Below, in pieces: positions 21,924 to 62,563 of a stretch of 64,000 bases of DNA; position 1 is the stretch's first letter; each line of letters opens with the position of its first letter. The notes under the pieces are model-generated. The model had not been told where the DNA came from. It worked only from the letters and a program-made list of their open reading frames with translations, and did not search any database. The translations under genes and the position numbers were made by a program. This DNA comes from Caulobacter sp. (lineage in GTDB: Bacteria; Pseudomonadota; Alphaproteobacteria; Caulobacterales; Caulobacteraceae): positions 125,024-189,023 of the forward strand of contig JBIIAX010000005.1 in the NCBI GenBank assembly GCA_044239675.1, read 5' to 3'.

Positions 21924-21999
<76 letters not shown>

Positions 22000-45701: not shown

Positions 45702-47099
45702 TCAGGCCTGCCGCGCTTTTGGAGTCGGTGGCGGGATGAGCATGGCGCAGGCCAGGGCCACGACCATCGCCATGGCCGGCGTCCGCAGCGGATAGTCGAC
45801 CACCGAATGGGCGGCGACGGCGACCAGCACCAGGCAGGCCGCCCGCCCCTGACGGCTGATCGGATCGGGTGTCTTGTCGCGCCAGGCGCTCCAACCGCGC
45901 CAGCCGGCCCAGACCAGCAGGGCGAGGAAGATCAGGATCCCCGGCCAACCACCTTCGAGCCAGAGCTCCAGATAGTCGTTGTGGGCGTGATTCATGAAGC
46001 CGGACCGCATGGTGTCCAGCCGCTCCTGCGCCCGGTAGACGGTGTCGAAGCTCCCGAACCCGGCGCCGATCGGGGTCAGCTTCTGGGCCGCCTCGGCGAT
46101 ATTCGGCCAGACCGCGAACCGCTGGTCCTCCGCCACTCGGTTCTGGTCGAAGCGCTGGAGAATGGGACTGCTGGCGACCAGCACCACGGCGGCGAGGGCC
46201 GCGGCCGCGCCCCCCGCGATCAGACCAATGCTGCGCCGCCGCCCTGGACCGATCTCTCGAAGAAAGACCCCCAGGCTGAGCAGCAGGGTCAGGCCCATGA
46301 CGACCGTACCGGCCCGCGACCGGGTGGCGACCGCGACGACCACCATCAAGCCGACCAGCACCAGGCCAATGGCGATGCGGTGCGGTTGGGGCGGCCCCGG
46401 GACGCGAGAACCGCCGAACACATAGGCCATCACCAGGGGAACGGCGGCGCACATCAGGGTCGCTTGATGGTTGCGGTTGGCGAAAAACCCGATCGGCAAC
46501 CCTTCATGGATCCGGGCGTAGAGGCGCAGGCTGTCCGCATCCGGCAGGGCCACCTGAAGCGCGCCCAGCAGAGCGGAGGCCACGGCCAGGATGGCGACGA
46601 CCAGGGCCAGTCTCGCCCGGCTGCGCGGGTCGAGGAGCGTCACGGCCAGGAAGATGGCGACAGGGGGAATGAGGGCAAGGATGCACCTCAGGGTCTCGGC
46701 GGGCTTGATGCTGATCGGCGCCCAACCGGGCTGGAGACCGGCCACGGCCAGGGTCTGGGTCTGCAGCTCGCGACCGGGAAGTTGGGTCCAGACACTGGGC
46801 GGGAGCGGGATGATCTGGATCACCGGCAAGGCGATGATGGCGGCCAGCAGGATGAGGCTGAGGCGCTGTTCCCGCGCCAGCGACGCCTCGGACCAACGCC
46901 AGAGGGCCCAGGCCAGGACGGGCAGGCTGGCCAGCTCGACCAGCAGCAGGCGCAACGGCGCTTCCCGGCTCGCCCCGCCAAAGACCAGGCCGACCAGCAG
47001 CAGGGCCGCCACGGCGATAGCCAGCGCGGGGCCCAGTTCCAGACCCCGGACTCGGCCACGGACGGGTCGATGGCGAGATTTTCCGCGCCGCGCACTCAT
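45702..47099 (-). CDS. O-antigen ligase / O-oligosaccharyltransferase family protein
   Basis: GFFANRNHQA, TRSRAG, IGAGFGSF and HAHNDYLELWLEGG WaaL/PglL-type motifs. Confidence 0.85.
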   Translation of the reverse strand: MSARRGKSRHRPVRGRVRGLELGPALAIAVAALLLVGLVFGGASREAPLRLLLVELASLPVLAWALWRWSEASLAREQRLSLILLAAIIALPVIQIIPLPPSVWTQLPGRELQTQTLAVAGLQPGWAPISIKPAETLRCILALIPPVAIFLAVTLLDPRSRARLALVVAILAVASALLGALQVALPDADSLRLYARIHEGLPIGFFANRNHQATLMCAAVPLVMAYVFGGSRVPGPPQPHRIAIGLVLVGLMVVVAVATRSRAGTVVMGLTLLLSLGVFLREIGPGRRRSIGLIAGGAAAALAAVVLVASSPILQRFDQNRVAEDQRFAVWPNIAEAAQKLTPIGAGFGSFDTVYRAQERLDTMRSGFMNHAHNDYLELWLEGGWPGILIFLALLVWAGWRGWSAWRDKTPDPISRQGRAACLVLVAVAAHSVVDYPLRTPAMAMVVALACAMLIPPPTPKARQA

Positions 47100-48355
47100 G
47101 ACGGCCCCCCGACGCCGACCGGCGCCTGGCGAACCTCGATGTCGTCGAACGAGGTTTCCAGCGACAAGCGTCGGTCGCCGCCGCGGGCGTTCAGATACAG
47201 GCTCTGCGCCGCGCAGGCTTCGTCCACATCAAAGTCCACATGAAACCTGGCCCACTGGCCCTTCTCAGTATCGATCGGCTCACCCAACGCCAGGGGGCGG
47301 CCCTCGATGCAGCGGACCAACCACTGGTACAGGCCATCGGCGCCATCCTCGTTGACCCGGACTCTGCCGGTCAGTCGATAGCGGCCGGGAGGCAGGGCCA
47401 GGGTCTGGCGGACCATGCCGCTGTGGGGGTCAAAGCCGTCGTAGCGCAGGACCAGCTCTCCGCCCGTGGGCCCCGCCTCCAGGGTGGCGGTGACGCCGGG
47501 GTCCTGGAAAAGCTGCCAGTTGAATGGGGGCGGCCCGCGCAGCCCATCGAACCCGGGATCGTAGACCCACTGTCCCGTCGTCGGAGGTTTCGTCGAAACC
47601 AGGCTGAACCAGTCGGCCCGGGCCTGCGCGAACTCACCGATCTTCATCACACGATTGACGTAGTCGCCAACCTCGGGATCCGTCGGCGCAAGGCCGCGGG
47701 CCTTCATCTCGAACAAAAGCTGGCGAAAGCCGTCGACGGAAGCGTAGGCGCCCATCCGGGACATCAGCTTCGGGCGCCAGTCCGGTGCAAGCGCCATGCG
47801 GTCCACCAGCGCCTCTACGGCCCGAGGGTCTCCCATCAGTCCGGCGACCGCCGGACCGACGGCCTGCATGCCACTCTCCGTGCGGCGCATGATCGAGTCT
47901 GCCGACCGCATGGCCGCCTTGAAGTCCCCCTGACCGGCGGCATCAGCGAATAGCCAGTATTGAGTCGGCGTGTCGCGGCGGCTGAGGGCCGCCCCCCGGC
48001 GAAAATAGATCCGGGCCCGCGCCCGGTCGCCAGTAACGGCCTCGGCGTTGCCAAGCACCCGGAGTGCGCTGACGTCCGATGGATCGGCCTGAAGGGCCCG
48101 CCGCGCCGTGGCCGCCGCCCGCGAAAACTCTCCCCGTCCCGACAGCGTCTCGGCCTTGAGCGAAAGAGCCTGGCCATCGTTCGGCGCCCAGGACAGCGCC
48201 GGAGCAACCTCGCGCGTCGCCAGGAAATGGCCGGTCAGGCCCTGCGCCAGACAGAGCCACCCAAGGCCCAGCATGACCGCCAGAAGCACCGCGGCCCTGA
48301 CCAGGGCCCGTGGACCGAGGACAAGGCCGCGCGACTGGGATTGCGGCTCCGCCAT
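47096..48355 (-). CDS. Membrane-anchored TPR-like protein with a C-terminal beta-sandwich-like domain
   Basis: N-terminal TM helix; ARRALQADPSDVSALRVLG TPR-like repeat; PGFD...FNWQL tail. Coupled to wzc and the ligase gene. Confidence 0.65.
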   Translation of the reverse strand: MAEPQSQSRGLVLGPRALVRAAVLLAVMLGLGWLCLAQGLTGHFLATREVAPALSWAPNDGQALSLKAETLSGRGEFSRAAATARRALQADPSDVSALRVLGNAEAVTGDRARARIYFRRGAALSRRDTPTQYWLFADAAGQGDFKAAMRSADSIMRRTESGMQAVGPAVAGLMGDPRAVEALVDRMALAPDWRPKLMSRMGAYASVDGFRQLLFEMKARGLAPTDPEVGDYVNRVMKIGEFAQARADWFSLVSTKPPTTGQWVYDPGFDGLRGPPPFNWQLFQDPGVTATLEAGPTGGELVLRYDGFDPHSGMVRQTLALPPGRYRLTGRVRVNEDGADGLYQWLVRCIEGRPLALGEPIDTEKGQWARFHVDFDVDEACAAQSLYLNARGGDRRLSLETSFDDIEVRQAPVGVGGPS

Positions 48356-50628
48356 TACCCGCCGGTGGAGACAAGCTTGGGCTTGGTTCCGTAGCTGTAG
48401 TCATAGGCGTAGCCATAGCCGTAACCGTAGCCGTAGCCCGCCGCCTTGGCGTTGAACTTGGTCAGCACCGCGCCGAGCAGGCGGAACCGGCCTGGCGCCA
48501 GCCGCTCGAGAGCGGCGCGGGCGGTGCCGCGCCGGGTCACACCGGCCTCGACCACCAGCACCGTGCCGCCGACCACCGAAGCCAGAATTGGCGCGTCGGC
48601 GAGCCCCAGGACTGGCGGACCGTCGATGACCAGCAGGTCGAACACTTCCGCCGCCTCGGCCAGCAGGCTGCGCAGCCGTGGCCCGCCAAGCAGCTCGGCC
48701 GGGTTCGGAGGCAGGGGTCCACAGGCCATGATCGACAGGTTGGGCTGATCACTGACCTGGACCAGTTCCTCCAGCGGCATTCCGGTCAGGTAGTTGCTGA
48801 GGCCAAAACTGTTGTCGGCGCCGAGGGTGCGGTGCAGCGACGGGTTCCGCAGGTCGCCATCGACCAGCAGGACCCGCTTGCCGAGACCCGCGAAACTCCG
48901 GGCAATGGCCAGGGCCGAGGTCGACTTGCCTTCCGAAGGCCGGCTGCTGGTCAGCAGGACACTGGCCGGCACACCCTCCATGGTCGAGAACTGCAGGGCT
49001 GTTCGGATCGAGTAGTAGGCCTCGGAGAAGTTCGATCTGGGATCGGCCAGGGCCGCGAGGACGCCAACACCCTTGCTGAGCACCGGCACCGAGCCCAGCA
49101 GGGATACACCCAGCTTGCTCTCGATATCCTCCGGCCGGTCGATGGATTCATCGAAGTATTCGAGGGCCAGGGCGGCAAGCACGGCCAGGGCCAGGCCCGC
49201 CAGGGCGGCGATCGCCAGGTTGAGGAAGGGTTTGGGCCGCGAAGGCACGCCCGGCGGCTTGGCCCGGTCGACGATGGAGATGTTGTTGCTGCCCAGGCCG
49301 CCGGCGACGCCGACTTCCTTGTAGCGTTGCAGCAGGCCGTCATAGAGGACCCGATTGGTGTCCACTTCCCGCTGCAGGATATTGTACTTGATGCTCCGCT
49401 CACGGAGATCGAGGTAGGACCCCTTCAGCTGGGTGACCCGACCGCCGAACGACTGTTCCTGTTTCAGGGCGGTTTCATACTGGGCGCGCAGGGCGCCGCG
49501 AATGCCCGATACGGTGGTCCTGATCTGGCGATCGGTCTCATCGATCTGCGACTGCAGCGCCGTCATCTCGGGGAAGTTCGGCTTATAGAGCTTCAGGTTC
49601 TCCTGATAGGTGGCTTTCAGCTTGGCCTGCTGCTGCTGCAGCTGCTGGACGGTCGGGTTGGTCAGGGCCTCCGGAAGGGCGCTGTCCGGGGTCGACTGAG
49701 CCTGGCGCCAGCGCTGCTCGGCGCGGATCCGCTCCCCCTGAGCCTCGGAAAAGGCGCTGTTCAGGGCCGAAAGGTTGGACGATGTCAGAGATTTTCCGCC
49801 GCCGCTCGGAGCGCCCGGCGCGGAGCTGGCTTCCTCCTCGACGTTGATGATCTCCTGCTGGCCGGCGTAGGCGACCAGTTGCCGTTCGGAGTCCTCAAGC
49901 CGTTGCTTCACCTGCTTGAGCCGACCTTCGAGGAAGGTGCGAGCATAGGAGGAGGAATCGTAGCGACGATCGAGATTGGAGGTGATGAAGCTGTCCGCGA
50001 AGGCATTGGCGATCCTGGCCGAAATGTTCGGCTTGGGGCTGTCGAAGGTCACCTTCACCAGGCGGGACCCGCGGGTCGGGGCCACGCCGAGGTTCTTTTT
50101 CAACTGGCCGATCGCCGCCTTGCGCCTCGCGGCCGGGGTCAGTTTCTTCTTGTCCAGGGGAACGCCCATGGTCCGGAGGAAGTTGTCATCCAGATCCAGC
50201 CGCAGGCTGTCGACCACCCGTTCGGCGAGGGATTCGCTCTTCAGCAGCCCATACTGCGTCTGGAAGAACTCGTCGCCGGTCGAAGCCTCGGTCGGCGTCA
50301 TGTCGCCGACATCGAGAATCTTGGTCTCCTGGCGCTCGATCTGCAGGGTCGTGCTGGCCGTGTAGATCGGCGTCATCAGCAGGGTTGCGATAATGCCGAC
50401 GACCAGGGTGGCGACGAAGATCGACAGGGCGATCCAGCGATATTTGATCAGCGCGTGCCAGTATTTGAGGAAGGACGCAGAGGACCCGCCCTTGTCGGGA
50501 GCGGCCCAATCCCAACCGGAGTAGGCCTCGGGAAGCTGGGCGTCACGAATGACAATGGGGCCGGCGGAACGGGCCGTCGGAACCGGCCTGCCGGCGGCAT
50601 CACCCTGACCGCGATCGAGACTATGCAT
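48355..50628 (-). CDS. wzc: Wzc/GumC polysaccharide co-polymerase BY-kinase
   Basis: Wzz-type N-terminus TPIYTASTTLQI, coiled coil, Walker A SRPSEGKST, LVDGDLRNP, VIDGPP and C-terminal YGYGYGYAYDY cluster. Confidence 0.93.
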   Translation of the reverse strand: MHSLDRGQGDAAGRPVPTARSAGPIVIRDAQLPEAYSGWDWAAPDKGGSSASFLKYWHALIKYRWIALSIFVATLVVGIIATLLMTPIYTASTTLQIERQETKILDVGDMTPTEASTGDEFFQTQYGLLKSESLAERVVDSLRLDLDDNFLRTMGVPLDKKKLTPAARRKAAIGQLKKNLGVAPTRGSRLVKVTFDSPKPNISARIANAFADSFITSNLDRRYDSSSYARTFLEGRLKQVKQRLEDSERQLVAYAGQQEIINVEEEASSAPGAPSGGGKSLTSSNLSALNSAFSEAQGERIRAEQRWRQAQSTPDSALPEALTNPTVQQLQQQQAKLKATYQENLKLYKPNFPEMTALQSQIDETDRQIRTTVSGIRGALRAQYETALKQEQSFGGRVTQLKGSYLDLRERSIKYNILQREVDTNRVLYDGLLQRYKEVGVAGGLGSNNISIVDRAKPPGVPSRPKPFLNLAIAALAGLALAVLAALALEYFDESIDRPEDIESKLGVSLLGSVPVLSKGVGVLAALADPRSNFSEAYYSIRTALQFSTMEGVPASVLLTSSRPSEGKSTSALAIARSFAGLGKRVLLVDGDLRNPSLHRTLGADNSFGLSNYLTGMPLEELVQVSDQPNLSIMACGPLPPNPAELLGGPRLRSLLAEAAEVFDLLVIDGPPVLGLADAPILASVVGGTVLVVEAGVTRRGTARAALERLAPGRFRLLGAVLTKFNAKAAGYGYGYGYGYAYDYSYGTKPKLVSTGG

Positions 50629-50692
50629 TCTGTTGGACCTGACTGCAGATGGAAACGCGGCCTGCGCCGGACGTGATCGAAAACGCCATAGA

Positions 50693-51403
50693 TCAGAATG
50701 GCCTGAAGATGGCCAGAATCGGCACCGCCCCGATGACTTCGCGCCAGGCCGCCTTGACCTGGGAGCCATCGACGACGACCACGTCACCGCCGACGACCGG
50801 CGGATCGATGGTCTTGCCCTCGCGGATGGCCTTCAGGTCGAACACCGCCACGGTGCGCTGGCCCTGAACGGTGCGGAACACCGCCACCCGGCGCAGATTG
50901 GCCATTCGGGAATCCGGTCCCCGGGCCAGCGCCACGGCCTGAAGCAACGAGGTGTCGCCGGTGAGGACATAGACGCCGGGCTGAATGACCGCGCCATCAA
51001 CGGTGATCTTCTGGCTGACGGCCTCCTCAAGCCAGACCGTCACCTGCGGCGACTCCAGATACTCCTTGCCCAGGCGGGCGGCGATGTCGGCCGCCAGTTC
51101 GTTGGTCGTGCGGCCCGAGGCCCTGACCTGACCGATCAGCGGCAGCGTCACATAGCCGCCCGCATCGACCTGAACGCCTTCCATGCTCAGGGTCTGAACC
51201 CGGAAGACGTTGATATTGATCTTGTCGAGCGGCCCGATGCGGTAGTCCGCGGGCGGGGCCATCGGCTCGGCCACCCCGATGTTGGTGGCCACGCCGAGCT
51301 GAGCGTCCCTTGGTCCAGCGCCGTCGCTGGCGCAGGCGACGGCCAGCATGGCCATCCCCGCCAGGACCAGGGATCGACAGACGGCGGCTGCAGTTTGGAA
51401 CAC
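50693..51403 (-). CDS. wza: Wza-type polysaccharide export lipoprotein
   Basis: Lipobox LAVAC; YRIGPLDKI, LPLIGQV and DGAVIQPG motifs; GTG start with GGAG upstream. Confidence 0.88.
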   Translation of the reverse strand: MFQTAAAVCRSLVLAGMAMLAVACASDGAGPRDAQLGVATNIGVAEPMAPPADYRIGPLDKININVFRVQTLSMEGVQVDAGGYVTLPLIGQVRASGRTTNELAADIAARLGKEYLESPQVTVWLEEAVSQKITVDGAVIQPGVYVLTGDTSLLQAVALARGPDSRMANLRRVAVFRTVQGQRTVAVFDLKAIREGKTIDPPVVGGDVVVVDGSQVKAAWREVIGAVPILAIFRPF

Positions 51404-51726
51404 ATTCAACTCCTGGATCGCGTCCTGTCCGTCCGACAGCCTGCCCTCGGATTGGTTCCGAATTTCGGCGCCGACACAGATGGACACAGCTTCTCTTCGC
51501 ATGCTTTGCGACGGCTCCCCCATGAAGCGAGCCGCTTTGGCGGTTCTTAGCACCGATACCGTCCCTTGCCTATTTACGGGGCGCCGTAATGGCGACAAAC
51601 CGACGCACGGTCCGGAGACGGTCAAGCGGAACGAACAGACTCAACCGCGTCACGAAAACTTCACCCTATTGAAGGACTTAGGCTCATCCTGGGGTCTCGG
51701 CCCCCGAACATCTCCAATGGCCGGCT

Positions 51727-52710
51727 CTAGAACTTCGGCTCCGCCAGCCACCGGCTGGCGCTGCTGACCATGGCCTCCAGGTCCCGGGTTGGCCGCCATC
51801 CCAGATCGGCGTCAGCGGCCTGCGCGTCGGCGATCAGAATAGGCGGATCGCCGGGTCTCCGGTCGCCGATCACATGCGGAACGGGCCGCCCCAGGGCTCT
51901 TCCCGCCGCCTCGATCACCTCGCGAACCGAGATCCCCCGGCCCGCGCCCAGATTCCAGATCCTGCTTTCTCCGCCGTCCAACAACCATTCAAGCGCGCGG
52001 ATGTGGGCGTCGGCCAGATCGGTTACATGCACATAGTCCCGCAGAGCCGTGCCGTCCGGCGTCGGATAGTCCTGCCCGAAAACCGTGACCGGCGAATTGT
52101 GGGAGATCGCCGCCCGGCAGATCAGCGGAATCAGATGGGTCTCAGGGTCATGACTTTCACCGATCGAACCGCCGGCGTCCGCGCCGGCGGCGTTGAAATA
52201 GCGAAGGATGGCTGATCGGAACTGCCCGGCCTGACCGAGCCAGCCCAGCAGCGATTCGAACGCCAGCTTTGAGGCGCCATAGGGATTGATCGGAACGAGC
52301 GGTGAGGCTTCCGGGGCCGGAACGACTTGCGGCAGGCCGTACACGGCGGCCGTCGAGGAGAAGACCATGGTCTCAACGCCATTGGCGATCAGCGTCCGGA
52401 CGAAGCGGATCGGCGCGGCGGTGTTATTCTCGAAATAGCGGAGAGGGTCGCGCATGCTCTCGCCGACCTGGCTGTAGGCGGCGAAGTGCATGGCCGACCT
52501 TATGTCGTAGGTCGCGACGACCGCCGCGACCGTCGCGTCGTCGCCGATGTCGCCCAGTTCAAGTGGTCCGAACTGCACGGCCTCGGCGTGACCGGTGCTG
52601 AGGTTATCGAGGGTCACCGGCAGATAGCCGGATTCCGCCAGCGCCTTGCAGACATGCGAGCCGATGTAGCCCGCGCCACCGGCGACAAGGATCGCGCCCT
52701 TGGAACTCAT
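51727..52710 (-). CDS. galE: UDP-glucose 4-epimerase
   Basis: GGAGYIGSH, FSSTAAVYG, YGASK, LRYFNAAGA and RDYVHVTDLADAH motifs. Confidence 0.95.
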   Translation of the reverse strand: MSSKGAILVAGGAGYIGSHVCKALAESGYLPVTLDNLSTGHAEAVQFGPLELGDIGDDATVAAVVATYDIRSAMHFAAYSQVGESMRDPLRYFENNTAAPIRFVRTLIANGVETMVFSSTAAVYGLPQVVPAPEASPLVPINPYGASKLAFESLLGWLGQAGQFRSAILRYFNAAGADAGGSIGESHDPETHLIPLICRAAISHNSPVTVFGQDYPTPDGTALRDYVHVTDLADAHIRALEWLLDGGESRIWNLGAGRGISVREVIEAAGRALGRPVPHVIGDRRPGDPPILIADAQAADADLGWRPTRDLEAMVSSASRWLAEPKF

Positions 52711-52722: not shown

Positions 52723-53490
52723 TTAGTAGGAGCCGCGGCGGAAGATGACCACCGGGACGGTGGCCACGAGTATCCAGGCGTCGAGGCCGAGACTCTTCGA
52801 CCGGACGTAGGCGGTGTCGATGGCGACGCGGCGGCGGTAGGACAGATCATTGCGACCGCTCACCTGCCACAGACCGGTGATGCCCGGACGGACGGACTGG
52901 TAATGGATGAAGTAGCGGCCGTAGCGAGCGCCTTCTTCGGCCACGATCGGGCGCGGGCCCACAAGGCTCATCTCGCCGCGCAGGACGTTGAACAGCTGGG
53001 GAAGCTCATCGAGGCTGGTCTTGCGCAGAAAGGCGCCGATCCGGGTGATGCGGGGATCGTTCCGCAGCTTGTGATCCAGGGCCCATTCCGCGCGTGCTTC
53101 AGGCGATTCAGCCAGCAGCCGCTCCAACCGCTCCTTGGCGTCGACCGCCATGGACCGGAACTTCATGCAGGGGAAACTGCGGCCGTCGCGGCCGACCCGG
53201 CGGTGGGCGAAGAAGATCGGACCGCCGTCGTCAAGCCGAACCAGAAGGGCCGTTAGAAGCATCAGCGGGGCCAGGGCGACGAGCAGCAGGCTGGCCAGGA
53301 TCACGTTGATAATGCGTTCGCCGTCCCAAGACCGGCGCCGCGTATCAGGCCGAACCAAGGGGCTCGGAGACATTGACGCGGCGTGGGCAAAAATCTGCCG
53401 CTGCGGTGACGGAACGCTGTGAACGTCCGCTTCGCGGTGGCGTGCATCGATGCGGGATGTGAATTCCGCGCTGGGCTGCATTAGGGACAT
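52723..53490 (-). CDS. Priming undecaprenyl-phosphate glycosyl-1-phosphate transferase (ExoY/WbaP-like, small PGT)
   Basis: [34 protein letters not shown] and [14 protein letters not shown] motifs. Confidence 0.93.
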
Positions 53491-53645
53491 GCCTCACGTT
53501 CGCCTTCGCACTGCAGCAAGAGCAACCACGGCGGCCAAAATTCTCGCTGGCCGTCGCCGCTACATCAATTGTTGCGGCTTTTATCAGCAGGTTATGCCGA
53601 AAAACAACCCAACCAGGGTAAGAACCCGCGAATTATTTCAGACAC

Positions 53646-53674
53646 GAAAAAGCCGGCAACCTGGGTTGCCGGCT
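53646..53674 (-). terminator. Intrinsic terminator downstream of small protein 1
   Basis: AGCCGGCAAC/GTTGCCGGCT stem followed by a U-tract on the minus strand. Confidence 0.75.
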
Positions 53675-53726
53675 CTCAAGACGCATCCTGACGCGAAAAA
53701 CACCCGCGCCACGCGATGGGGGAACC

Positions 53727-54005
53727 CTACGGGGATTCGTCCTCGTCCAGTTCGCTGATCGCGAGGGCGCCGGCGGCGGCGACGCCGCCGACGATCAGGA
53801 GACCGGTGGTGGTCTCGCTCAGCTCGCTGGTCCGGCCCTTCTCAGCGCCGACGCGCTTCAGGGTGGCGGCCTTGGCCTTGGCCTTGGCGGGCTTGGCCGC
53901 GACAGCGGCGGAAGCCGTTGACGGGACAAGGTTTTCTGCCATCGCCGGGCCGGCGAGGGCAGCCAATGCCAGCAGCCCGACGGCCGCTGCTTTTAGTGTC
54001 TTCAT
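53727..54005 (-). CDS. Small secreted protein, paralogue 1 (LKRxGAxKGR / SP-terminal family)
   Basis: 92 aa; GGAGG RBS; signal peptide ending AMA; LKRVGAEKGR; hydrophobic helix; ELDEDESP end; homologous to the two upstream ORFs. Confidence 0.85.
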   Translation of the reverse strand: MKTLKAAAVGLLALAALAGPAMAENLVPSTASAAVAAKPAKAKAKAATLKRVGAEKGRTSELSETTTGLLIVGGVAAAGALAISELDEDESP

Positions 54006-54025
54006 CAGAAACCTCCTTCAAGGAC

Positions 54026-54060
54026 AGCGCCAATACGGACGGGCCAAATGGCCAGACGCC
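54026..54060 (-). promoter_or_regulatory. Conserved structured 5' leader, copy 1
   Basis: mRNA GGCGUC-U-GGCC-AUUU-GGCC-N10-GGCGCU; same geometry as copies 2 and 3. Confidence 0.65.
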
Positions 54061-54271
54061 ACAATCTCATCTTTAACCGGAGCAGAGGCCCCGGGCGCAA
54101 GCGCGGAACTGTGACATTATGAAACGGCATACCGCACTGCCGCATTTTTGGCGTCTCGGCCCTGCCCCCGTCCATCCCCTGATCGGATTTCGGGCGCCGG
54201 AGATCCAGGTTCAGTGGCGGGAGCCCACGCCCGAGGCCGCACCTTCCGCAGACTATCGGACATCAACGCCG

Positions 54272-54302
54272 AAAAGGGTCGGCAGCAAAAGCCACCGACC
54301 CT
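54272..54302 (-). terminator. Probable intrinsic terminator downstream of small protein 2
   Basis: AGGGTCGG/CCGACCCT stem with a short U run on the minus strand. Confidence 0.55.
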
Positions 54303-54351
54303 CGTCAAAATTCGTTCGGACTGGCGCTAGTCGAGACCAGCGCCGGCGCAA

Positions 54352-54639
54352 CTACGGGGAAGAGGGCGCGCTGTCGTCGCCCTCAAGCGCGACCGCGCCG
54401 GCGACGACAGCGACCACCCCGGTGACAACCATCAAGGATTCCCACCTGAATTCGCCGACTTGAGCATTGACCCGGCCCTTTTCAGCGCCAGCGCGCTTCA
54501 GAGCGGCCTTGGCCTTGGAGGCTTTCGCGGCCTTCGCCGTCGCGGCGGCGGGCACCTTGGCGGCGGTTTGGGCGAGCGCCGGGCCGGCGACAAACGCCAG
54601 GGCGGTGAGACCCAGAACTGCGGCTTTGAAACTCTTCAT
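54352..54639 (-). CDS. Small secreted protein, paralogue 2
   Basis: 95 aa; signal ending ALA|Q; LKRAGAEKGR; hydrophobic helix; EGDDSAPSSP end. Confidence 0.85.
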   Translation of the reverse strand: MKSFKAAVLGLTALAFVAGPALAQTAAKVPAAATAKAAKASKAKAALKRAGAEKGRVNAQVGEFRWESLMVVTGVVAVVAGAVALEGDDSAPSSP

Positions 54640-54655
54640 CGGAAATCCCCGTCAC

Positions 54656-54690
54656 AGCGCGCAGGATTTTTGACCGTCTGGTCAGGCGCT
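54656..54690 (-). promoter_or_regulatory. Conserved structured 5' leader, copy 2
   Basis: mRNA AGCGCC-U-GACC-AGAC-GGUC-N10-CGCGCU; compensatory changes relative to copies 1 and 3. Confidence 0.6.
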
Positions 54691-54874
54691 GATCAAGGCG
54701 ATTAAAGCCCAAAGCGCCAGTTGGTTGCAATACCGCAGTTGTAGAGGCCGCGGATTTGTCGGGGGATGGCGCTTTTTTACCGCACCATTTCGCCCTGCCT
54801 AGCCGGAGGCGCCTCGGCTCGCCCCCTTACCCCGCCTAGCCGTCGCCGGCCGCAAAACAGGTTCTAACGACGCA

Positions 54875-54905
54875 AATAGGCCGGTGGCGACGCCACCGGC
54901 CTATT
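54875..54905. terminator. Long perfect hairpin downstream of small protein 3
   Basis: AATAGGCCGGTGGCG-A-CGCCACCGGCCTATT read directly. Confidence 0.7.
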
Positions 54906-54949
54906 GATCTTCCAGCCGCCCGGAGTTGGGCGACGAAATACTGCGCGTC

Positions 54950-55228
54950 CTACGGGGACTCGGCTTTGTTGTCGTCGGCGATTTGCGTGATGGCGATCGC
55001 CCCAACGATAATGCCCCCGACGGTGACCAACGGAATGAACGACGGCGAGTCGACAATATCGCCATTGGTCCGGCCCTTTTGGGCGCCGACACGCTTCAGC
55101 GACGCGGCCTTGGAGGCCTTCGAAGCCTTGTAGGCGGGAGCCTTGGCCGGAGCGACCGTCTGCGCGAGAGCGGGGCCGGCAATGGCGACGGCGACAGCCG
55201 CGACCAGGGCAGCTTTAAGAGTCTTCAT
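54950..55228 (-). CDS. Small secreted protein, paralogue 3
   Basis: 92 aa from ATG 55228 with GGAGG RBS; LKRVGAQKGR; hydrophobic helix; DDNKAESP end. Confidence 0.85.
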   Translation of the reverse strand: MKTLKAALVAAVAVAIAGPALAQTVAPAKAPAYKASKASKAASLKRVGAQKGRTNGDIVDSPSFIPLVTVGGIIVGAIAITQIADDNKAESP

Positions 55229-55248
55229 CAGATCCTCCATGATAGAAA

Positions 55249-55283
55249 AGCGCCAGATCGGACGGGCCAGGTGGCCGGACGCC
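55249..55283 (-). promoter_or_regulatory. Conserved structured 5' leader, copy 3
   Basis: mRNA GGCGUC-C-GGCC-ACCU-GGCC-N10-GGCGCU. Confidence 0.65.
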
Positions 55284-55599
55284 TAATTCACCCTCTTAAT
55301 CCCGATTCTGGCGAAGAATTGCAAGCGCCATGTTACCGGCTGGGTGTATTTTGCGCTGCACTGCCGCATTTCGACATCAGGGTTCACGCCGGGACCCTTT
55401 CCGGACCGGTTGGGTTCGCTGGCCTCGCAAGGCCGCCCGGCCTGCCCGTCTGATCAACAGATGGCGCCTCTCTCTTGCACTGCAGCATCCAAACTGACGC
55501 ACTTGCCCGATCCGCCAGCCTTGATGGCTTTACGGCGGACGGACCGGCGGGCGATGTCCTGATCCCGCCCTCGGGCAGGCTGGAGACTGGAGCGACGTC

Positions 55600-55884
55600 A
55601 TGGTCACCCTCGAGTTCATGCTGGGGTCGGATAGGGACGCGGGCCGGTTCGACCTTGCCCTCTATCGTTTTTTGGAATCCGGGGATTTCAGGCCGGACGT
55701 CGATGACGATCTGGCGATGTGCCACACTACCCCATTGAGAGACTGCACCTTGAAACAGGTGGTCTTCTCCTGCGCGCGGATGGCCGAGGCTTTCGTGCTG
55801 TTCTGGAGCGGATTCGAAGACCCCGCGGGGAGGGCTCCCTGGGAGGACTGGCGCTCGGCCATCGGCGCGGCGACCGCCCATTGA
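55600..55884 (+). CDS. Hypothetical protein (94 aa)
   Basis: ATG with GGAG 7 nt upstream and natural-looking composition; no family recognised. Confidence 0.35.
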   Translation: MVTLEFMLGSDRDAGRFDLALYRFLESGDFRPDVDDDLAMCHTTPLRDCTLKQVVFSCARMAEAFVLFWSGFEDPAGRAPWEDWRSAIGAATAH

Positions 55885-56069
55885 GGCGACGTCCCGGCGC
55901 TCTGTGAACGCCTTGCCGAGCCTTCGCCCAGCTTGTAGGCAGTCGTGCTGGCTGGCGGTTCGGAGCGAACGGCCGGACAGCGAACCCATCCCTCGCGGAT
56001 TCGAATCCCGCGGCTTGCCGCGACCCTGACAACCTGACGCCGGCCTACGGCGGTCGCCAAGGGCAACCT

Positions 56070-58292
56070 ATGCTTCATCCAGTGATTGTTTGCGGTGGTT
56101 CTGGGTTGCGGCTTTGGCCTGCGTCGACACCCGCGCGGCCGAAACCCTTCATCCCGCTGATGGAAGGCCAGTCCACCTTCGGTCAGGCGCTGTTCCGGGT
56201 CGGCCAATTCGCTTATGCCGCGGAGACCATCGTGGTCGCGGGGCCCGCCCATGCCGGACTGATCGAGGCCGAACTGGCCAGGCAGGGAATGGTCGGCACG
56301 GTGGTGGTCGAACCGGAGGGCCGCGATTCCGCTCCCGCCATGGCCGCCGCCGCCGAGCTCGTCCGCCGCCGCGATGCCGATGGCGTCTGTATCTTCCTGG
56401 CCGCGGACCATGACATCAGCGACCATATGGCCTTCGCCGCTGTGGTCGAGACCGCGCGGCAGCTGGCCCTGACCGGCGGCATCGTCACGCTTGGCGTCAA
56501 TCCCACAGGGCCTTCAACCGCCTACGGCTACATCCAGCCGGGGGACCTGCTCGGCCAGGGCGAGGGGCGCCGGGTGAAGGCCTTCGTCGAAAAGCCAGAC
56601 CACGACCGCGCCCTGCGCTTCCTCAGCGAAGGCTTCCTCTGGAACAGCGGCATGTTCATCTGCCGGGCCGATGTCCTGCTTGAGGAACTGGCCACCCACG
56701 CGCCGGCCGTGGCCCGGTGCTGCGAAGAGGCCGTGGCCACCGGCGCCCTGGACGGCGGGCAGTTTCATCTGGGCCAGGTGTTCCGCACGACCCCGAAGAT
56801 CTCCATCGACTACGCCGTCCTGGAAAAGACCGACAAGGCCCTGGTCCTTCCCGCCGCCTTCGCCTGGTCCGACCTGGGCGCCTGGGACGCGGTCCTTGAA
56901 CAGTCTTCGCGCGATCCGGCCGGAAACTACGGCGATGGCGAGGTTCATCTTCAAGGGGCCGAGAACTGCCTCGTTCGCGCCGGACCCGGAATGACCATCG
57001 CCGCCGCCGGGACCCGCAATCTGGCGATCATCGCCGAGGGCTGCTCGGTGATGGTCTGCGACCTGGCCAACACCACCGACCTGAAGGCCCTGATCGAACG
57101 GGTCAACGCCAGCGCCGCCGCCGTGCCTGGCCCCTCGGCGCGAGCGCTCGGCGCCCGGTTCGAGACCTGGCTGATGACCGCCGCCCTGCCCCTGTGGTGG
57201 ACCCTGGGCGCCGACCACGCGGGCGGCGGCTTCCAGGAACTGATCGGCCAGGATGGCCGGCCGGTCGAGGCCGATCGCCGCCTAAGGGTCCAGGGCCGCC
57301 AGACCCACGTCTTCGCCCGCGCCGGCATCGATGGCTGGACGGGTCCCTGGCGACAGGCGGTTAAGCACGGCCTCGACGCCCTGTCCGGCCGCTATCGCCG
57401 CGAGGACGGACTGTACCGCACCCTGGTCACCCCGGACGGCGCGTCGAAGAATGACGAGGCCTGGCTCTATGACCAGGCCTTCGTCCTGCTGGCCCTGGCC
57501 TCGGCCACCGCGGCCGGCGTCCGCGCCGAGGCTTGCAAGGCGGAAGCCCGAGACCTGCTGACCGCCATTCGAGGCGCCTATAGTCATCCGTCCGGCGGCT
57601 TCCGTGAAATCACCGCCCTGAGCTTCCAGTCCAATCCCCTGATGCACCTGTTCGAGGCGGCCCTGACCTGGATGGAAACGGATGGCGAGCCGGTCTGGAA
57701 GGATCTGGCCCAGGAAATCGTCGACCTGATCCTGATTCGCCTGCTCGATTCCGAGGGGGGCCCCCTGCGGGAGTATTTCGACTCCGACTGGAGTCCGGCG
57801 CCCGGACGCAACGGCGCGGTGGCCGAGCCAGGCCATCAGTTCGAATGGGCCAGCCTGTTGACCCGCTGGGCCAGGCTCACCGGCGACGATGGCGCTCTGA
57901 TCGCGGCCCGCAAGCTCTATGACTGCGGGGCCAAGGGGGTAGACAACCGGCGCGGCGTGGCCATCGACGAGATGGACACCTCATTCAACTGGGTCCGCCG
58001 CTCAGCCCGCCTCTGGCCGCAGACGGAGCGGATCAAGGCCGCCGCCGCGCTGGCGGCGCTGGAACCTGAAGGCGGACGCATGCAGGCCGACGCCCTGGCC
58101 GCCGCGCAGTCCCTGTGGCGCTACCTCGAAACGCCGGTCCAGGGGCTGTGGCGCGACCGCCAGGATATCTCCGGCGGTTTCCTGGATGAACCGGCGCCCG
58201 CCAGCAGCCTCTACCATATCCTCGGCGCGGTCGAGGCCATCGGGGCCCTGGCCCAGACGACCGCGCCGGAACCAGTCCCCGCCGAGGCCTGA
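56070..58292 (+). CDS. manC: Mannose-1-phosphate guanylyltransferase fused to an AGE-family epimerase/isomerase
   Basis: N-terminal VIVCGGSGLRLWP, EPEGRDSAPA, WNSGMF, SIDYAVLEK, WSDLGAW; C-terminal RVQGRQ, SNPLMHLFEA, EPGHQFEW, RLWPQTE, SSLYHI. Confidence 0.88.
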   Translation: MLHPVIVCGGSGLRLWPASTPARPKPFIPLMEGQSTFGQALFRVGQFAYAAETIVVAGPAHAGLIEAELARQGMVGTVVVEPEGRDSAPAMAAAAELVRRRDADGVCIFLAADHDISDHMAFAAVVETARQLALTGGIVTLGVNPTGPSTAYGYIQPGDLLGQGEGRRVKAFVEKPDHDRALRFLSEGFLWNSGMFICRADVLLEELATHAPAVARCCEEAVATGALDGGQFHLGQVFRTTPKISIDYAVLEKTDKALVLPAAFAWSDLGAWDAVLEQSSRDPAGNYGDGEVHLQGAENCLVRAGPGMTIAAAGTRNLAIIAEGCSVMVCDLANTTDLKALIERVNASAAAVPGPSARALGARFETWLMTAALPLWWTLGADHAGGGFQELIGQDGRPVEADRRLRVQGRQTHVFARAGIDGWTGPWRQAVKHGLDALSGRYRREDGLYRTLVTPDGASKNDEAWLYDQAFVLLALASATAAGVRAEACKAEARDLLTAIRGAYSHPSGGFREITALSFQSNPLMHLFEAALTWMETDGEPVWKDLAQEIVDLILIRLLDSEGGPLREYFDSDWSPAPGRNGAVAEPGHQFEWASLLTRWARLTGDDGALIAARKLYDCGAKGVDNRRGVAIDEMDTSFNWVRRSARLWPQTERIKAAAALAALEPEGGRMQADALAAAQSLWRYLETPVQGLWRDRQDISGGFLDEPAPASSLYHILGAVEAIGALAQTTAPEPVPAEA

Positions 58293-59275: not shown

Positions 59276-60457
59276 TCAGAAGTTGATCGAGATCGTCGAA
59301 CGGCGGTTCAGGGGTTCCTTCACCCCATCGCCGGTGGCGACGGCGGGAGCGGATTCACCCTTCCAGTCGACCGAGAGGGTCGCGCTGTTGACGCCCAGGC
59401 CGATCAGGGCGTCGGCGACGGCCTTGGACCGGCGCTGCGACAGGCCGACGTTGTATTTGGCCGAACCGGAGGTGTCGGCGTGACCGACGACCACGATCTG
59501 GGTGGCGTTGCCGGCCGAAGCGTACTGAGCCGCTTCCGAAACCACCGACTGGGCTTCCGGCGTCAGGATCGATTGATCGAACGGGAAGTAGACGATGAAT
59601 TCGCGCGCTTCATAGACCGGCGCCGGCGGAGGAGCCGGCGGCGGCGGGGGAGCTTCCGGCGGGGGCGGCGGAGGTGCGGGCGGCGGCGGGGGCGGCGCTG
59701 GCTGGGCGAAGCTGTAACGCAGCCCCACCGTCAGCGACTGGTCCTCATAGGCGCCCTTGAAGGAGCCGGGCTGCGCCGAGCCGGAGCTGCTCGAGCCGAA
59801 CCGGATGTCGTTGCCGTCCAGGTAGCGGTAGGTCAGGTCGCCGGTGAGGCGGTCGGAGATGTCGAAGGACATGCCGCCCAGGAACTGCCAGGCGAAGGCC
59901 GTATCGTCGTCATCGACCCGGAAGACGCCGCCCGGCGTGGCCGAGTTGAATTTTCCACCGACCTTCAGATCAACCCGGGCGGCGCCGATCCCGGCTCCGA
60001 TAAACGGGCGGACGCGCGAGGACGGGAAGAAGTCATAGATGACATTTCCCATCAGGGTGTAGGCCTCGATGTGCCCACCGGGTCCCGCGCAGTTGGTCGA
60101 CGCCGGCAGCGACACCGACACGTTGCAGACCGCGTTGGGCAGGGCCCGGGTGGGGGTTCCCTTTACCGACTCAACCGCGCCGGCGCGGAATCCGCCTTCG
60201 ATTTCCACCCGCCAGTTGGGGTGAACCTGCCAGCCGAGACGCCCAAAGCTGGCGATATTGTCTTCCTGCTGGAAGTCGTAGCGGTAGGGCAGGCCATCGG
60301 TCGCGTCGTTCTGAGACCGGGCGCTGATGCCCTCTGGCGTATGCCAGCCGAGATCGGCCGCGACATACGGGCCGAGTTCCTGGGCCGCCGCCTGCTGGGC
60401 GACCGCCATCATTAATGCGCCGGCTACGCCAGCCGCCAAGATCGTCTTCAACGTCAT
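59276..60457 (-). CDS. ompA: OmpA family outer-membrane protein
   Basis: Signal peptide, 8-strand barrel ending GLRYSF, Pro-rich linker, VYFPFD, GHADTSG..YN..LS.RR and NRR peptidoglycan-binding motifs. Confidence 0.92.
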   Translation of the reverse strand: MTLKTILAAGVAGALMMAVAQQAAAQELGPYVAADLGWHTPEGISARSQNDATDGLPYRYDFQQEDNIASFGRLGWQVHPNWRVEIEGGFRAGAVESVKGTPTRALPNAVCNVSVSLPASTNCAGPGGHIEAYTLMGNVIYDFFPSSRVRPFIGAGIGAARVDLKVGGKFNSATPGGVFRVDDDDTAFAWQFLGGMSFDISDRLTGDLTYRYLDGNDIRFGSSSSGSAQPGSFKGAYEDQSLTVGLRYSFAQPAPPPPPPAPPPPPPEAPPPPPAPPPAPVYEAREFIVYFPFDQSILTPEAQSVVSEAAQYASAGNATQIVVVGHADTSGSAKYNVGLSQRRSKAVADALIGLGVNSATLSVDWKGESAPAVATGDGVKEPLNRRSTISINF

Positions 60458-60694
60458 CGAGGTTCCCCTTGCCCTGCTGGAACCCGCGCAACACCCTTGG
60501 TCATCAGCAAGGCTGAGACCAGGGCTCGCGGGCCGTGGTCCCAGATGAAGTCCTGTGGTCGATCGCCGTTCCGAAGGGGCCGGACCTCTCGGGGCAATTG
60601 TGGCGAACTGTGGCGCGGCTGCTACAGCACACCCTCGCGGACAGCCCGGCGGCGGCCTGTCCGCCGCTCACTCCAGCCGGACCCCGCTGAACCT

Positions 60695-61264
60695 TTAGTC
60701 CTTGGCGCGCTCGTAGTAGCTGCCGTCCTCGGTCAGCACGACGATACGGGTGCCCGAGGCGATATAGGGCGGCACCATGACCCGCGCGCCGTTGGACAGG
60801 GTGGCGGGCTTGTAGGAGGAAGAGGCCGTCTGGCCCTTCATCGCCGGCTCGGTGTCGACGATCTCGAAGGTCACCCGGGCGGGAAGTTCCATGGCGATCG
60901 GGGTGTTGTCGTGGATGGACAGGAAGACGGTCATGCCTTCGCTCAGCCACTGGCCCTTTTCACCGATCATCTCGGGGGAGACGACATACTGATCGAAGCT
61001 CTCGGGGTTCATGAAGTGGAACCCCTCGCCGTCCTGATAGAGGAAGGTATGTTCCCGCTCGTCGACGAAGGTCTGCTCGACCTGTTCAGTGGTGCGGTAG
61101 CGTTCCGAGACCTTCACCCCGTCGGAGATGCGGCGCATGTCCAGCTGGGTGACCGGGGTGCCCTTGCCGGGGTGGATGTTCTCGACACTGAGGACGACAT
61201 AGAGCTTGCCGTCGACATCGAGAACGGAGCCCTTGCGGAGCGAGCTGGCGGCGACCTTCGGCAT
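60695..61264 (-). CDS. efp: Elongation factor P
   Basis: HPGKG loop with the modifiable Lys, [21 protein letters not shown] and YYERA motifs. Confidence 0.96.
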
Positions 61265-61395
61265 GAAACCCTCTTGTGCGGCGGGACGCGGCGCGTCGGC
61301 GCTGCGATTCCGTTGAATATCGTTGGGGCCGCTCTCTATAGGGTCACGAGCAAAACCGCCAGTGTCCGGCGGGATCTGGGCAGGAGCGCCGCGAC

Positions 61396-62520: not shown

Positions 62521-62563
62521 CCTCTCGGCCCGCGGATTTGCCCCTCGCCGCCACAGGCGCCAT

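What the first reader, a model, noticed from the sequence alone, without database searches (positions are those of the whole stretch)
53727..55228. Triplet of paralogous small secreted proteins heading the polysaccharide export operon: candidate capsule-anchor or sorting system
Seen in sequence: three ~92-95 aa ORFs in tandem with one architecture. Each has a Sec signal (MKxxKAA...AGPAxA), an Ala/Lys-rich arm, an invariant LKR[VA]GA[EQ]KGR motif, a ~20-aa Gly/Val/Ile/Ala helix and an acidic tail ending in Ser-Pro (ESP, SSP, ESP). They sit directly upstream of, and on the same strand as, priming transferase-galE-wza-wzc-TPR-ligase. The charge distribution (basic before the helix, acidic after) is the reverse of PEP-CTERM-type anchors and conflicts with the positive-inside rule for a simple inner-membrane anchor. 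Established: E. coli GfcA/YjbE are small signal + low-complexity + hydrophobic + acidic/Ser-Thr proteins encoded first in group 4 capsule / yjb export operons. Inference: these could be abundant envelope proteins that carry, nucleate or tether the polysaccharide, possibly cleaved at the basic motif and glycosylated on Ser/Thr.
Basis: partly seen in the sequence, partly recalled or inferred. Interest (0 to 1): 0.85.

Follow-up and report, generated by a model that had tools for sequence, protein, structure and literature searches.

The report
Triplicated small exported protein beside capsule genes
Three tandem copies of an uncharacterised ~92-residue exported, single-helix protein lie just upstream of a polysaccharide export gene set in a freshwater Caulobacter relative; every known relative sits at that same spot, so it probably belongs to the pathway, but its role is untested.

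Summary
Three paralogous genes lie on the minus strand at 54950-55228, 54352-54639 and 53727-54005. They are 47-50% identical and share one architecture: AxA signal peptide, cationic disordered arm, LKR[VA]GA[EQ]KGR motif, ~17-residue Gly/Val/Ala helix, and an acidic tail ending in Ser-Pro. They are real genes: dN/dS is 0.36-0.44, each has a Shine-Dalgarno site, and one copy appears in a metatranscriptome.

No Pfam, NCBIfam or PDB entry matches. An exhaustive HMMER search of 1.84 billion proteins found four other clusters; 14 are now known, all 'hypothetical' and all from uncultured Caulobacteraceae. In all eight independent loci with context the gene sits between a divergent ManC-AGE fusion gene and Bac_transf-(GalE)-Wza-Wzc-TPR-Wzy_C. 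Only this genome has three copies.

- Each copy has its own strong terminator hairpin, so they do not simply head the operon.
- The Ala/Lys arm and acidic tail are clade-specific.
- GfcA/YjbE resemble it in architecture only.
- No sortase-like partner was found.

Best reading (0.42): a small inner-membrane accessory of the export machinery that exposes a cationic arm to the periplasm. The anchor/carrier idea is not excluded (about 0.2).

The parts
54950..55228 (-). Small protein copy 1 (92 aa): signal peptide, Ala/Lys/Pro arm, LKRVGAQKGR motif, helix FIPLVTVGGIIVGAIAI, tail ...DDNKAESP, TAG stop.
54352..54639 (-). Small protein copy 2 (95 aa): LKRAGAEKGR motif, helix LMVVTGVVAVVAGAVAL, tail EGDDSAPSSP.
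53727..54005 (-). Small protein copy 3 (92 aa): LKRVGAEKGR motif, helix TGLLIVGGVAAAGALAI, tail SELDEDESP. Its 5' two-thirds is recovered as an exact 191-nt contig in a metatranscriptome.
54875..54905 (-). Terminator-like hairpin after copy 1: 14-bp stem AAUAGGCCGGUGGC/GCCACCGGCCUAUU, followed by UUGCG.
   Evidence: 90-nt fold -49.4 kcal/mol, z = -5.8
54268..54303 (-). Terminator-like hairpin after copy 2: 13-bp stem GGGUCGGUGGC.../...GCUGCCGACCC, followed by UUUUCGG.
   Evidence: -49.5 kcal/mol, z = -5.9
53643..53677 (-). Terminator-like hairpin after copy 3: 13-bp stem AGCCGGCAACC/GGUUGCCGGCU, followed by UUUUCG. A smaller hairpin plus U-run lies at 53689-53711.
   Evidence: z = -3.0
55209..55283 (-). 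Conserved 5' leader and start block of copy 1. It is 75% identical to the copy 3 block at 53986-54060; copy 2 has a different leader.
   Evidence: repeat family D2
53986..54060 (-). Conserved 5' leader and start block of copy 3.
53632..53659 (-). Promoter-like site TTGCCG-16-AATAAT between the copy 3 terminator and Bac_transf. This is a consensus match only.
52723..53490 (-). Short polyprenyl-phosphate hexose-1-phosphate transferase (Bac_transf, WbaP/ExoY-like). It begins 236 nt downstream of copy 3.
51727..52710 (-). GalE-like NAD-dependent epimerase.
50693..51625 (-). Wza-type export protein (Poly_export plus one SLBB domain). The true start is probably internal: a gene caller gave 276 aa on the same DNA.
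48355..50787 (-). Wzc-type chain-length regulator / tyrosine autokinase (Wzz, GNVR and P-loop domains).
47096..48355 (-). Protein with an N-terminal membrane anchor followed by TPR repeats, which are therefore presumably periplasmic.
45702..47099 (-). Wzy_C-family protein (O-antigen ligase/polymerase-like, ExoQ-like position).
56070..58292 (+). Divergent ManC (mannose-1-phosphate guanylyltransferase) fused to an AGE-family epimerase/isomerase domain. It is the conserved partner on the other side of the small gene in every locus where that side is held.

Best explanation
These are three anciently duplicated genes for a lineage-restricted envelope protein of about 70 residues when mature. The protein is a dedicated accessory of a Caulobacteraceae Wzx/Wzy-type exopolysaccharide or capsule export module.

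Shown:
- The genes are real and under purifying selection.
- Every known relative occupies the same slot, between the divergent ManC-AGE gene and the priming transferase-Wza-Wzc-TPR-Wzy_C genes.
- In this genome each copy has its own ribosome-binding site and its own terminator hairpin.
- The features conserved across the family are the AxA|Q signal-peptidase site, the basic juxtamembrane motif L-x-R-x2-A-x-K-G-R, a short Gly-containing hydrophobic helix, and a C-terminal Ser-Pro(-Lys/Arg).

Inferred:
- Sec export and signal peptide cleavage.
- The C-terminal helix then holds the protein in the inner membrane with the N-terminus out. This puts a disordered arm of about 40 residues, net charge +2 to +7, and the basic motif at the periplasmic face.
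- There the arm contacts either the anionic lipid-linked or nascent polymer (the cluster encodes a UDP-glucose dehydrogenase, so the polymer is probably acidic) or the periplasmic parts of Wzc, the TPR protein or Wza. The effect would be to tune polymer assembly, hand-over or retention.
- Separate promoters and terminators allow it to be made in excess over the enzymes.
- The three diverged copies suggest specialisation rather than simple dosage.
For: Real genes. Transcribed: an exact 191-nt contig of copy 3 in a metatranscriptome. That contig and one over the Bac_transf 5' end (2 mismatches) are the only full-length contigs across 20 kb.

New family: no Pfam, NCBIfam or PDB match. All cluster members are named 'hypothetical protein'.

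Conserved synteny at 24-33% protein identity.

Architecture: signal helix 3-17 and helix 64-86, the rest disordered. Cationic ectodomain in all nine representatives. The basic motif is the most conserved segment, with a top-residue frequency of 0.66 against 0.42 for the arm.

Own terminators. Uronic-acid precursor enzyme in the cluster.

Precedent for small membrane proteins that modulate the adjacent priming transferase: ExoX/PsiA (PMC3233446).
Against: - No experiment of any kind exists for this family.
- The helix is short (about 17 residues) and only marginally hydrophobic. The summed Hessa scale gives -0.9 to +2.7 kcal/mol.
- In the window copies the helix is followed by an acidic rather than a basic tail, so inner-membrane retention is uncertain.
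- The strictly conserved C-terminal Ser-Pro is not explained by this model.
- The family is confined to one small clade, so related export modules in other bacteria work without it. Whether Caulobacteraceae carrying this same module can lack it could not be tested: loci L011-L017 hold only a ManC gene without the export genes, and L035 lacks the Bac_transf side.
- RNA evidence is two short contigs from one run, and DNA carry-over cannot be excluded.
Confidence: 0.42

Rival explanations
1. Carrier or anchor, GfcA/YjbE-like. The whole mature protein is translocated because the weak helix is not a stop-transfer signal. It then ends up at the periplasmic or outer-membrane face. There it tethers the acidic polymer through its cationic arm, or is itself glycosylated, most plausibly on the one invariant Ser in the C-terminal Ser-Pro, by the Wzy_C-family protein of the operon.
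For: - Same architecture and same 'first small gene' position as GfcA and YjbE. PMC8592465 itself speculates that GfcA might carry O-antigen.
- Marginal helix hydrophobicity and an acidic tail in the window copies.
- The terminal Ser-Pro is nearly invariant.
- A Wzy_C protein is always in the module.
- From my own knowledge, not tested here: some Wzy_C-family enzymes (PglL, PilO/TfpO) O-glycosylate proteins, and PilO modifies a C-terminal Ser of pilin.
- Own terminators and recovery in RNA fit an abundant structural protein.
Against: - No homology to GfcA or YjbE and no gfcBCD/yjbFGH-like genes.
- The arm is Ala/Lys/Pro-rich rather than Thr/Ser-rich, and one member has no Ser/Thr in its arm.
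- The Wzy_C protein matched only the generic Wzy_C model and sits where the ExoQ-type polymerase sits in the S. meliloti exo cluster.
- In the Brevundimonas-type members the tail is neutral to basic, which fits an ordinary N-out/C-in membrane anchor.
- The function of GfcA itself is unknown.
Confidence: 0.2
2. ExoX/PsiA-like brake. A small inner-membrane protein binds and inhibits the adjacent priming glycosyl-phosphate transferase according to the ratio of the two proteins. Three copies against one transferase gene would hold polysaccharide synthesis down unless the small genes are repressed.
For: - The small gene is immediately next to the Bac_transf gene in every locus.
- Precedent: in rhizobia, ExoX and PsiA are ~90-100 aa membrane proteins next to exoY/pssA, and their copy-number ratio controls EPS (PMC3233446). 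exoX lies beside exoY in S. meliloti.
- Independent transcription units would allow the ratio to be regulated.
Against: - No homology (hhalign probability 0.45%).
- The architecture is different. ExoX has uncleaved N-terminal hydrophobic segments and a long basic cytoplasmic tail. Here the conserved motif and most of the protein are on the periplasmic side, and only 9-14 residues would face the cytoplasm, where the transferase's catalytic domain lies (established knowledge of small Bac_transf enzymes).
- exoX is divergent from exoY; these genes are co-oriented with Bac_transf.
Confidence: 0.12
3. Positional passenger. It is a small envelope protein with some other role, such as membrane stress or cell surface charge, that happens to be inherited next to this locus within one narrow clade. 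The synteny would then reflect shared ancestry rather than function.
For: The family is known only from one group of Caulobacteraceae, in which even the flanking housekeeping genes (adh_short, EF-P, EpmA, EpmB) are syntenic. The genes are separate transcription units.
Against: The small protein is only 24-33% identical between clades, and the export genes 31-64%. GalE is present or absent, a 63-aa ORF comes and goes, and an OmpA-like gene is inserted in the window. Through all this the small gene keeps exactly the same slot.
Confidence: 0.12
4. Regulatory upstream ORFs. Translation of a signal-peptide-bearing ORF that ends in an Asp/Glu-rich stretch plus Ser-Pro-stop would pause or terminate poorly, depending on export state. 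That would alter folding of the downstream hairpin and read-through into the export genes, by analogy with secretion-monitoring arrest peptides.
For: - Conserved acidic, Pro-containing C-terminus.
- TAG stop in all 10 genes examined, against 12 of 39 window genes.
- A hairpin downstream of each ORF.
- At termination the helix would still be inside the ribosomal tunnel (inference from its position 9-14 residues from the end).
Against: - The most conserved element is a mid-protein basic motif, not the C-terminus alone.
- The main hairpins lie 45-80 nt beyond the stop, out of reach of a terminating ribosome.
- Three tandem copies, each ending in a full terminator, do not fit a leader-peptide design.
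- Tails in the other clade are not acidic.
Confidence: 0.04

Closest known systems
E. coli GfcA (YmcD) and YjbE, small first genes of the gfcABCDE-etp-etk and yjbEFGH loci
   Same: About 80-100 aa. AxA signal peptide, low-complexity region, Gly/Val/Ala-rich weakly hydrophobic stretch, short polar tail containing Asp. Each is the first small gene beside polysaccharide export genes, and each has unknown function (PMC8592465).
   Different: No detectable homology. The low-complexity region is Thr/Ser-rich and uncharged in GfcA/YjbE but Ala/Lys/Pro-rich or cationic here. GfcA and YjbE lack the basic L-x-R...KGR motif and the terminal Ser-Pro. They travel with GfcBCD/YjbFGH, which are absent here. 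gfcA is cotranscribed with its operon (PMC8592465), whereas these genes carry their own terminators.
Rhizobial ExoX / PsiA, small membrane inhibitors of the priming transferases ExoY / PssA
   Same: Membrane proteins of about 90-100 aa, encoded directly beside the short Bac_transf priming transferase of an alphaproteobacterial Wzx/Wzy EPS cluster. Gene dosage relative to the transferase matters (PMC3233446).
   Different: No homology. ExoX has no cleavable signal peptide and carries a long basic cytoplasmic tail. It is transcribed divergently from exoY. Here most of the protein would be periplasmic.
PEP-CTERM / exosortase sorting signals
   Same: A hydrophobic helix near the C-terminus of a secreted protein encoded in an EPS locus that contains Wzc-, Wza-, TPR- and Wzy_C-like genes.
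   Different: No PEP motif and no Arg-rich end. Model scores are not significant (E about 1-2). No exosortase was found among the ORFs scanned. The neighbouring genes score far below the XrtA-system cut-offs.

Membership tests
GfcA/YjbE | Detectable sequence homology to GfcA or YjbE. | tested here: not met
   hhalign of the 7-sequence family profile: probability 1.3% against GfcA and 0.1% against YjbE. No Pfam or NCBIfam family matched at E up to 10 apart from chance-level hits.
GfcA/YjbE | Signal peptide, then a low-complexity region, then a Gly/Val/Ala hydrophobic stretch, then a short polar tail, in 80-100 aa. | tested here: met
   Sequences compared directly. Minimum summed Hessa value over a 17-residue window: 0.35 for GfcA, against -0.9 to +2.7 for this family.
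GfcA/YjbE | Thr/Ser-rich low-complexity region (about 30% Thr in GfcA). | tested here: not met
   The arm is Ala/Lys/Pro-rich, with 0-9 Ser+Thr per 39-45 residues. One member has none.
GfcA/YjbE | Encoded together with GfcB/C/D (YjbF/G/H) homologues. | tested here: not met
   Pfam scans of the candidate ORFs tested found no such families. Some ORFs gave no match at all, and some stretches were not scanned.
GfcA/YjbE | First small gene, co-oriented with Wza/Wzc-type export genes. | tested here: met
   One qualification: separate terminators follow each copy here.
ExoX/PsiA | Sequence homology to ExoX. | tested here: not met
   hhalign probability 0.45% against S. meliloti ExoX taken from pSymB.
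ExoX/PsiA | Small membrane protein encoded next to the priming transferase gene. | tested here: met
   236 nt upstream of Bac_transf in the window, and the adjacent called gene (39-383 nt upstream) in every locus where Bac_transf is held.
ExoX/PsiA | Dosage-dependent inhibition of EPS synthesis. | not testable with these tools
   Needs over-expression and deletion experiments.
PEP-CTERM / exosortase substrates | Pro-Glu-Pro motif, then a transmembrane helix, then an Arg-rich C-terminus. | tested here: not met
   Tails are acidic or neutral and end in SP(K/R). NCBIfam PEP-CTERM-type models score E = 0.95-2.4.
PEP-CTERM / exosortase substrates | Exosortase gene in the same genome or locus. | tested here: inconclusive
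   None was found among the window ORFs scanned. However, only 64 kb of the genome is available and a few ORFs had no match.

The most novel reading that the evidence does not exclude
The protein is the acceptor or anchor of the polysaccharide. The weakly hydrophobic helix does not stop transfer. The mature ~70-residue protein reaches the periplasmic face, and the Wzy_C-family 'ligase' of the operon attaches the polymer to the invariant C-terminal Ser (Ser-Pro end). This would give a protein-anchored capsule, and would also suggest what GfcA/YjbE-type proteins do.
Probability: 0.12. Interest if true: 0.8.

Novelty: new variant of a known kind. Interest (0 to 1): 0.45.

Why it matters
Small signal-peptide proteins at the head of capsule export loci, such as GfcA and YjbE, have been known for years without a function. 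This is an unrelated family with the same layout and position. It has clearer conserved motifs (a basic juxtamembrane motif and a terminal Ser-Pro) and a strict one-to-one association with a compact Wzx/Wzy export module. That makes it a cleaner handle on what such proteins do: regulate, scaffold, or anchor the polymer. The practical weight is limited. The family is confined to a few uncultured freshwater Caulobacteraceae, and nothing here shows a mechanism.

Tried and rejected
- **Word-indexed protein search with the three paralogues.** It returned only the window's own proteins, because low-complexity words flooded the candidate list. The exhaustive search and a wider profile were needed.
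- **Genome scan with peptide patterns from the small protein.** 49 pattern matches, none confirmed.
- **Metagenome scan with the ManC-AGE alignment.** It returned generic ManC genes. None of the 80 loci encodes a family member. The one close relative, L035, has a different gene order and lacks the relevant side.
- **Structure prediction.** Two helices and disorder, pLDDT 58.6, so no fold search was run.
- **PDB sequence search and Rfam at a permissive threshold over 53400-56100.** Nothing significant.
- **Helix supplied in trans for a Wza lacking its outer-membrane helix.** Rejected because this Wza ends in its own hydrophobic segment ...AAWREVIGAVPILAIFRPF.
- **Mimic of the Wzz/Wzc proline-rich/GNVR region.** Considered because of 'SPK' and a Gly-rich helix. 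Rejected because the order of the elements is reversed and the Pfam GNVR model does not match.
- **YegP-like identity for the neighbouring 63-aa ORF.** My guess from its sequence pattern; there is no Pfam hit.
- **CtrA-box-like half sites upstream of copies 1 and 3.** Seen by eye. They are not full sites and were not pursued.
Full report
**What is there**

Three ORFs lie on the minus strand at 54950-55228, 54352-54639 and 53727-54005, of 92, 95 and 92 aa. The mechanical ORF for the first copy begins 12 nt earlier.

The three proteins align end to end with 31 invariant columns, and pairwise identity is 47-50%. All share:
- MK..KAA...AGPA.A, with an AxA|Q/E signal-peptidase site after residue 22-23.
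- A 41-45-residue Ala/Lys/Pro-rich arm with net charge +4 to +7.
- The motif LKR[VA]GA[EQ]KGR.
- A 17-residue Gly/Val/Ile/Ala stretch.
- A tail of net charge -2 to -5 that ends in Ser-Pro.

The DNA shows a tandem unit of 598-640 nt. Its best-conserved block encodes the basic motif, and copies 1 and 3 also share a 75-nt leader.

**Are they genes?**

Yes, on four grounds.
- GC3 is 0.78-0.83, like the neighbouring genes.
- dN/dS is 0.36-0.44 among the paralogues and 0.15-0.55 among orthologues.
- Each copy has a Shine-Dalgarno site.
- One metatranscriptome holds an exact 191-nt contig of copy 3 (53833-54023). It also holds a 200-nt contig over the 5' end of Bac_transf (2 mismatches). No other full-length contig from that run maps to 44-64 kb. 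This is thin evidence, but it fits relatively high expression.

**Transcription units**

Each copy is followed by a 13-14-bp perfect hairpin and a U-run. The 90-nt folds give -41 to -50 kcal/mol, with z = -3.0 to -5.9. Spacers of 310, 346 and 236 nt follow the three copies. A promoter-like site lies between the last terminator and Bac_transf. The copies are therefore adjacent to the export genes and co-oriented with them, but they are probably separate transcription units, not the first cistrons of the operon. The closest relative, L005, has a similar hairpin. More distant loci have weaker ones.

**Surroundings**

Downstream on the same strand lie a short Bac_transf priming transferase, GalE, a Wza-type exporter, a Wzc-type co-polymerase/kinase, a membrane-anchored TPR protein, and a Wzy_C-family protein.

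Divergently upstream lies a ManC guanylyltransferase fused to an AGE-family domain.

Further along, from 23.5 to 45.7 kb, are an AT3-SGNH acyltransferase, a UDP-glucose dehydrogenase, a Wzx-like flippase, several GT4 glycosyltransferases, and an MBOAT protein. This is a roughly 30-kb Wzx/Wzy-type locus, and its polymer is probably acidic and acylated.

No exosortase-like or gfcBCD-like gene was found among the ORFs scanned. The neighbours score well below the cut-offs of the XrtA/PEP-CTERM-specific models.

**Relatives**

No Pfam, NCBIfam or PDB match exists. An exhaustive HMMER search of 1.84 billion representative proteins found only four further clusters. A wider profile raised the total to 14 clusters at 90% identity. 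All are named 'hypothetical protein', and all come from metagenomes or MAGs labelled Caulobacteraceae, Caulobacter or Brevundimonas. The window itself comes from a lake-water organism. Its EF-P is 91-92% identical to that of those MAGs, and the flanking adh_short/EF-P/EpmA/EpmB genes are syntenic, so it is a Caulobacteraceae.

In all eight independent loci with context, the small gene is a single copy at the same spot. These are the window (same DNA as L001), L005, L006, L007/L008, L009, L010, L029-L032 and L033/L034. The spot is after the divergent ManC-AGE gene and before Bac_transf-(GalE)-Wza-Wzc-TPR-like-Wzy_C, wherever those flanks are held. This holds even though the small protein is only 24-33% identical between clades and the export proteins 31-64%. 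Only this genome has three copies.

The paralogues differ from one another about as much as each differs from L005's single copy (dN about 0.4). The duplications are therefore old, or the copies have diverged quickly.

**What is conserved across the family**

Four features are shared by all members:
- The signal peptide and its AxA|Q site.
- The basic motif L-[KQE]-R-x2-A-x-K-G-[RK], with Arg invariant. This is the most conserved segment.
- A Gly-containing hydrophobic stretch.
- A C-terminal Ser-Pro, or Ser-Pro-Lys/Arg.

The mature N-terminal region is cationic in every member (+2 to +7), but its composition varies: Ala/Lys-rich in this branch and Ser/Thr/Pro-rich in the Brevundimonas type. 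One member has no Ser or Thr there at all.

The tail is acidic only in the window/L005/P0005 branch. Elsewhere it is net 0 to +2.

AlphaFold2 with the 14-sequence alignment predicts only the signal helix and a helix at 64-86, at low confidence. The hydrophobic stretch is marginal for membrane insertion, with a summed Hessa scale of -0.9 to +2.7.

**Comparison with known systems**

*GfcA and YjbE.* I took both from E. coli K-12. They have the same layout and the same 'first small gene' position, and their function is still unknown. PMC8592465 speculates that GfcA might be modified by O-antigen. Homology is not detectable, the composition differs, and the GfcBCD partners are missing.

*ExoX.* I took it from S. 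meliloti pSymB, next to exoY. It is the precedent for a small membrane protein that inhibits the adjacent priming transferase according to gene dosage (PMC3233446). It is unrelated, has no cleaved signal peptide, and has a long basic cytoplasmic tail.

*PEP-CTERM signals.* They do not fit.

**How it most likely works**

The firm conclusion is that this is a dedicated small envelope component of this export module. The mechanism is inferred. After Sec export and cleavage, the C-terminal helix most simply acts as a membrane anchor. That places the cationic arm and the basic motif at the periplasmic face of the inner membrane. There, Und-PP-linked units, the growing acidic polymer, the large periplasmic domain of Wzc and the TPR domain all meet. 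I give this reading 0.42.

The anchor/carrier reading (0.2) is kept alive by the weak helix, the acidic tails of these copies, the unexplained invariant terminal Ser-Pro, and the constant presence of a Wzy_C protein. An ExoX-like brake (0.12), a positional passenger (0.12) and a translational-arrest type of regulatory ORF (0.04) are less likely, for the reasons given under the rival explanations.

**Verdict**

- The link to the polysaccharide locus is strongly supported by synteny.
- The specific anchor/sorting mechanism is unsupported but not excluded.
- Several descriptive claims need correcting: operon head, general acidic tail, and general Ala/Lys arm.

This is a new, narrowly distributed small-protein family, analogous to GfcA/YjbE but not homologous to them. 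Interest is moderate.

Noticed in passing
L007:1567-1758(-), L029:9409-9600(-), L030:5538-5729(-), L033:3377-3568(-), L006:856-1068(-), L009:5569-5892(+), L010:5562-5894(+): A conserved 63-aa ORF (70 aa in L006) lies between the ManC-AGE gene and the small gene, on the ManC-AGE strand, in the Brevundimonas/Caulobacter-type loci. Its consensus is M.DHSYS.QL..ESDS.WRWSVVDVDG.LNASGLS..EEAAR.AAFREIGQLA. It has no Pfam match and is absent from the window and from L005.
   Followed up: partly
window 55600-55884 (+): A 94-aa ORF with coding-like composition (GC1/2/3 = 0.59/0.49/0.80) lies in the 840-nt gap between copy 1 and ManC-AGE, the position the 63-aa ORF occupies elsewhere. A gene caller called it on the same DNA (L001). 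It has no Pfam match and no clear similarity to the 63-aa ORF.
   Followed up: partly
window 56070-58292 (+): Mannose-1-phosphate guanylyltransferase is fused to an AGE-family (GlcNAc 2-epimerase / mannose isomerase-like) domain. The fusion is the constant divergent neighbour of the small gene. Caulobacter loci whose ManC lacks the fusion did not have the export module nearby.
   Followed up: partly
stop codons of the small genes: window 53727-53729, 54352-54354, 54950-54952, and seven genes in other loci: All 10 family genes examined end in TAG, although the Ser and Pro codons before it vary. TAG is the stop of 12 of 39 window genes. Shared descent may explain part of this, but it is not otherwise explained.
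   Followed up: partly
window 23557-45676: This is the rest of the polysaccharide locus: AT3-SGNH acyltransferase (23557-25605), UDP-glucose dehydrogenase (26432-27739, -), Wzx-like flippase (27975-29711), GT4 glycosyltransferases, a second AT3 acyltransferase (36932-38047), and an MBOAT/DltB-like protein (41998-43488) followed by an unassigned ORF (43401-44489). ORFs at 31210-32502 and 38065-39546 have no family match.
   Followed up: partly
window 59276-63619: An OmpA-family protein (59276-60457, -) is inserted into an otherwise conserved adh_short / EF-P / EpmA-like / EpmB-like block shared with Caulobacter and Brevundimonas MAGs. EF-P is 91-92% identical.
   Followed up: no
window 50693-51625 (-): The Wza-type exporter is short, with one Poly_export and one SLBB domain. 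It has a probable lipoprotein-type signal (...MLAVAC) well inside the mechanical ORF, and it ends in a short hydrophobic segment.
   Followed up: no
window 15909-21996: A sulfate-assimilation block is present: PAPS reductase, sulfite/nitrite reductase, a tetrapyrrole methylase and a LysR regulator. A tRNA gene lies at 21924-21996.
   Followed up: no
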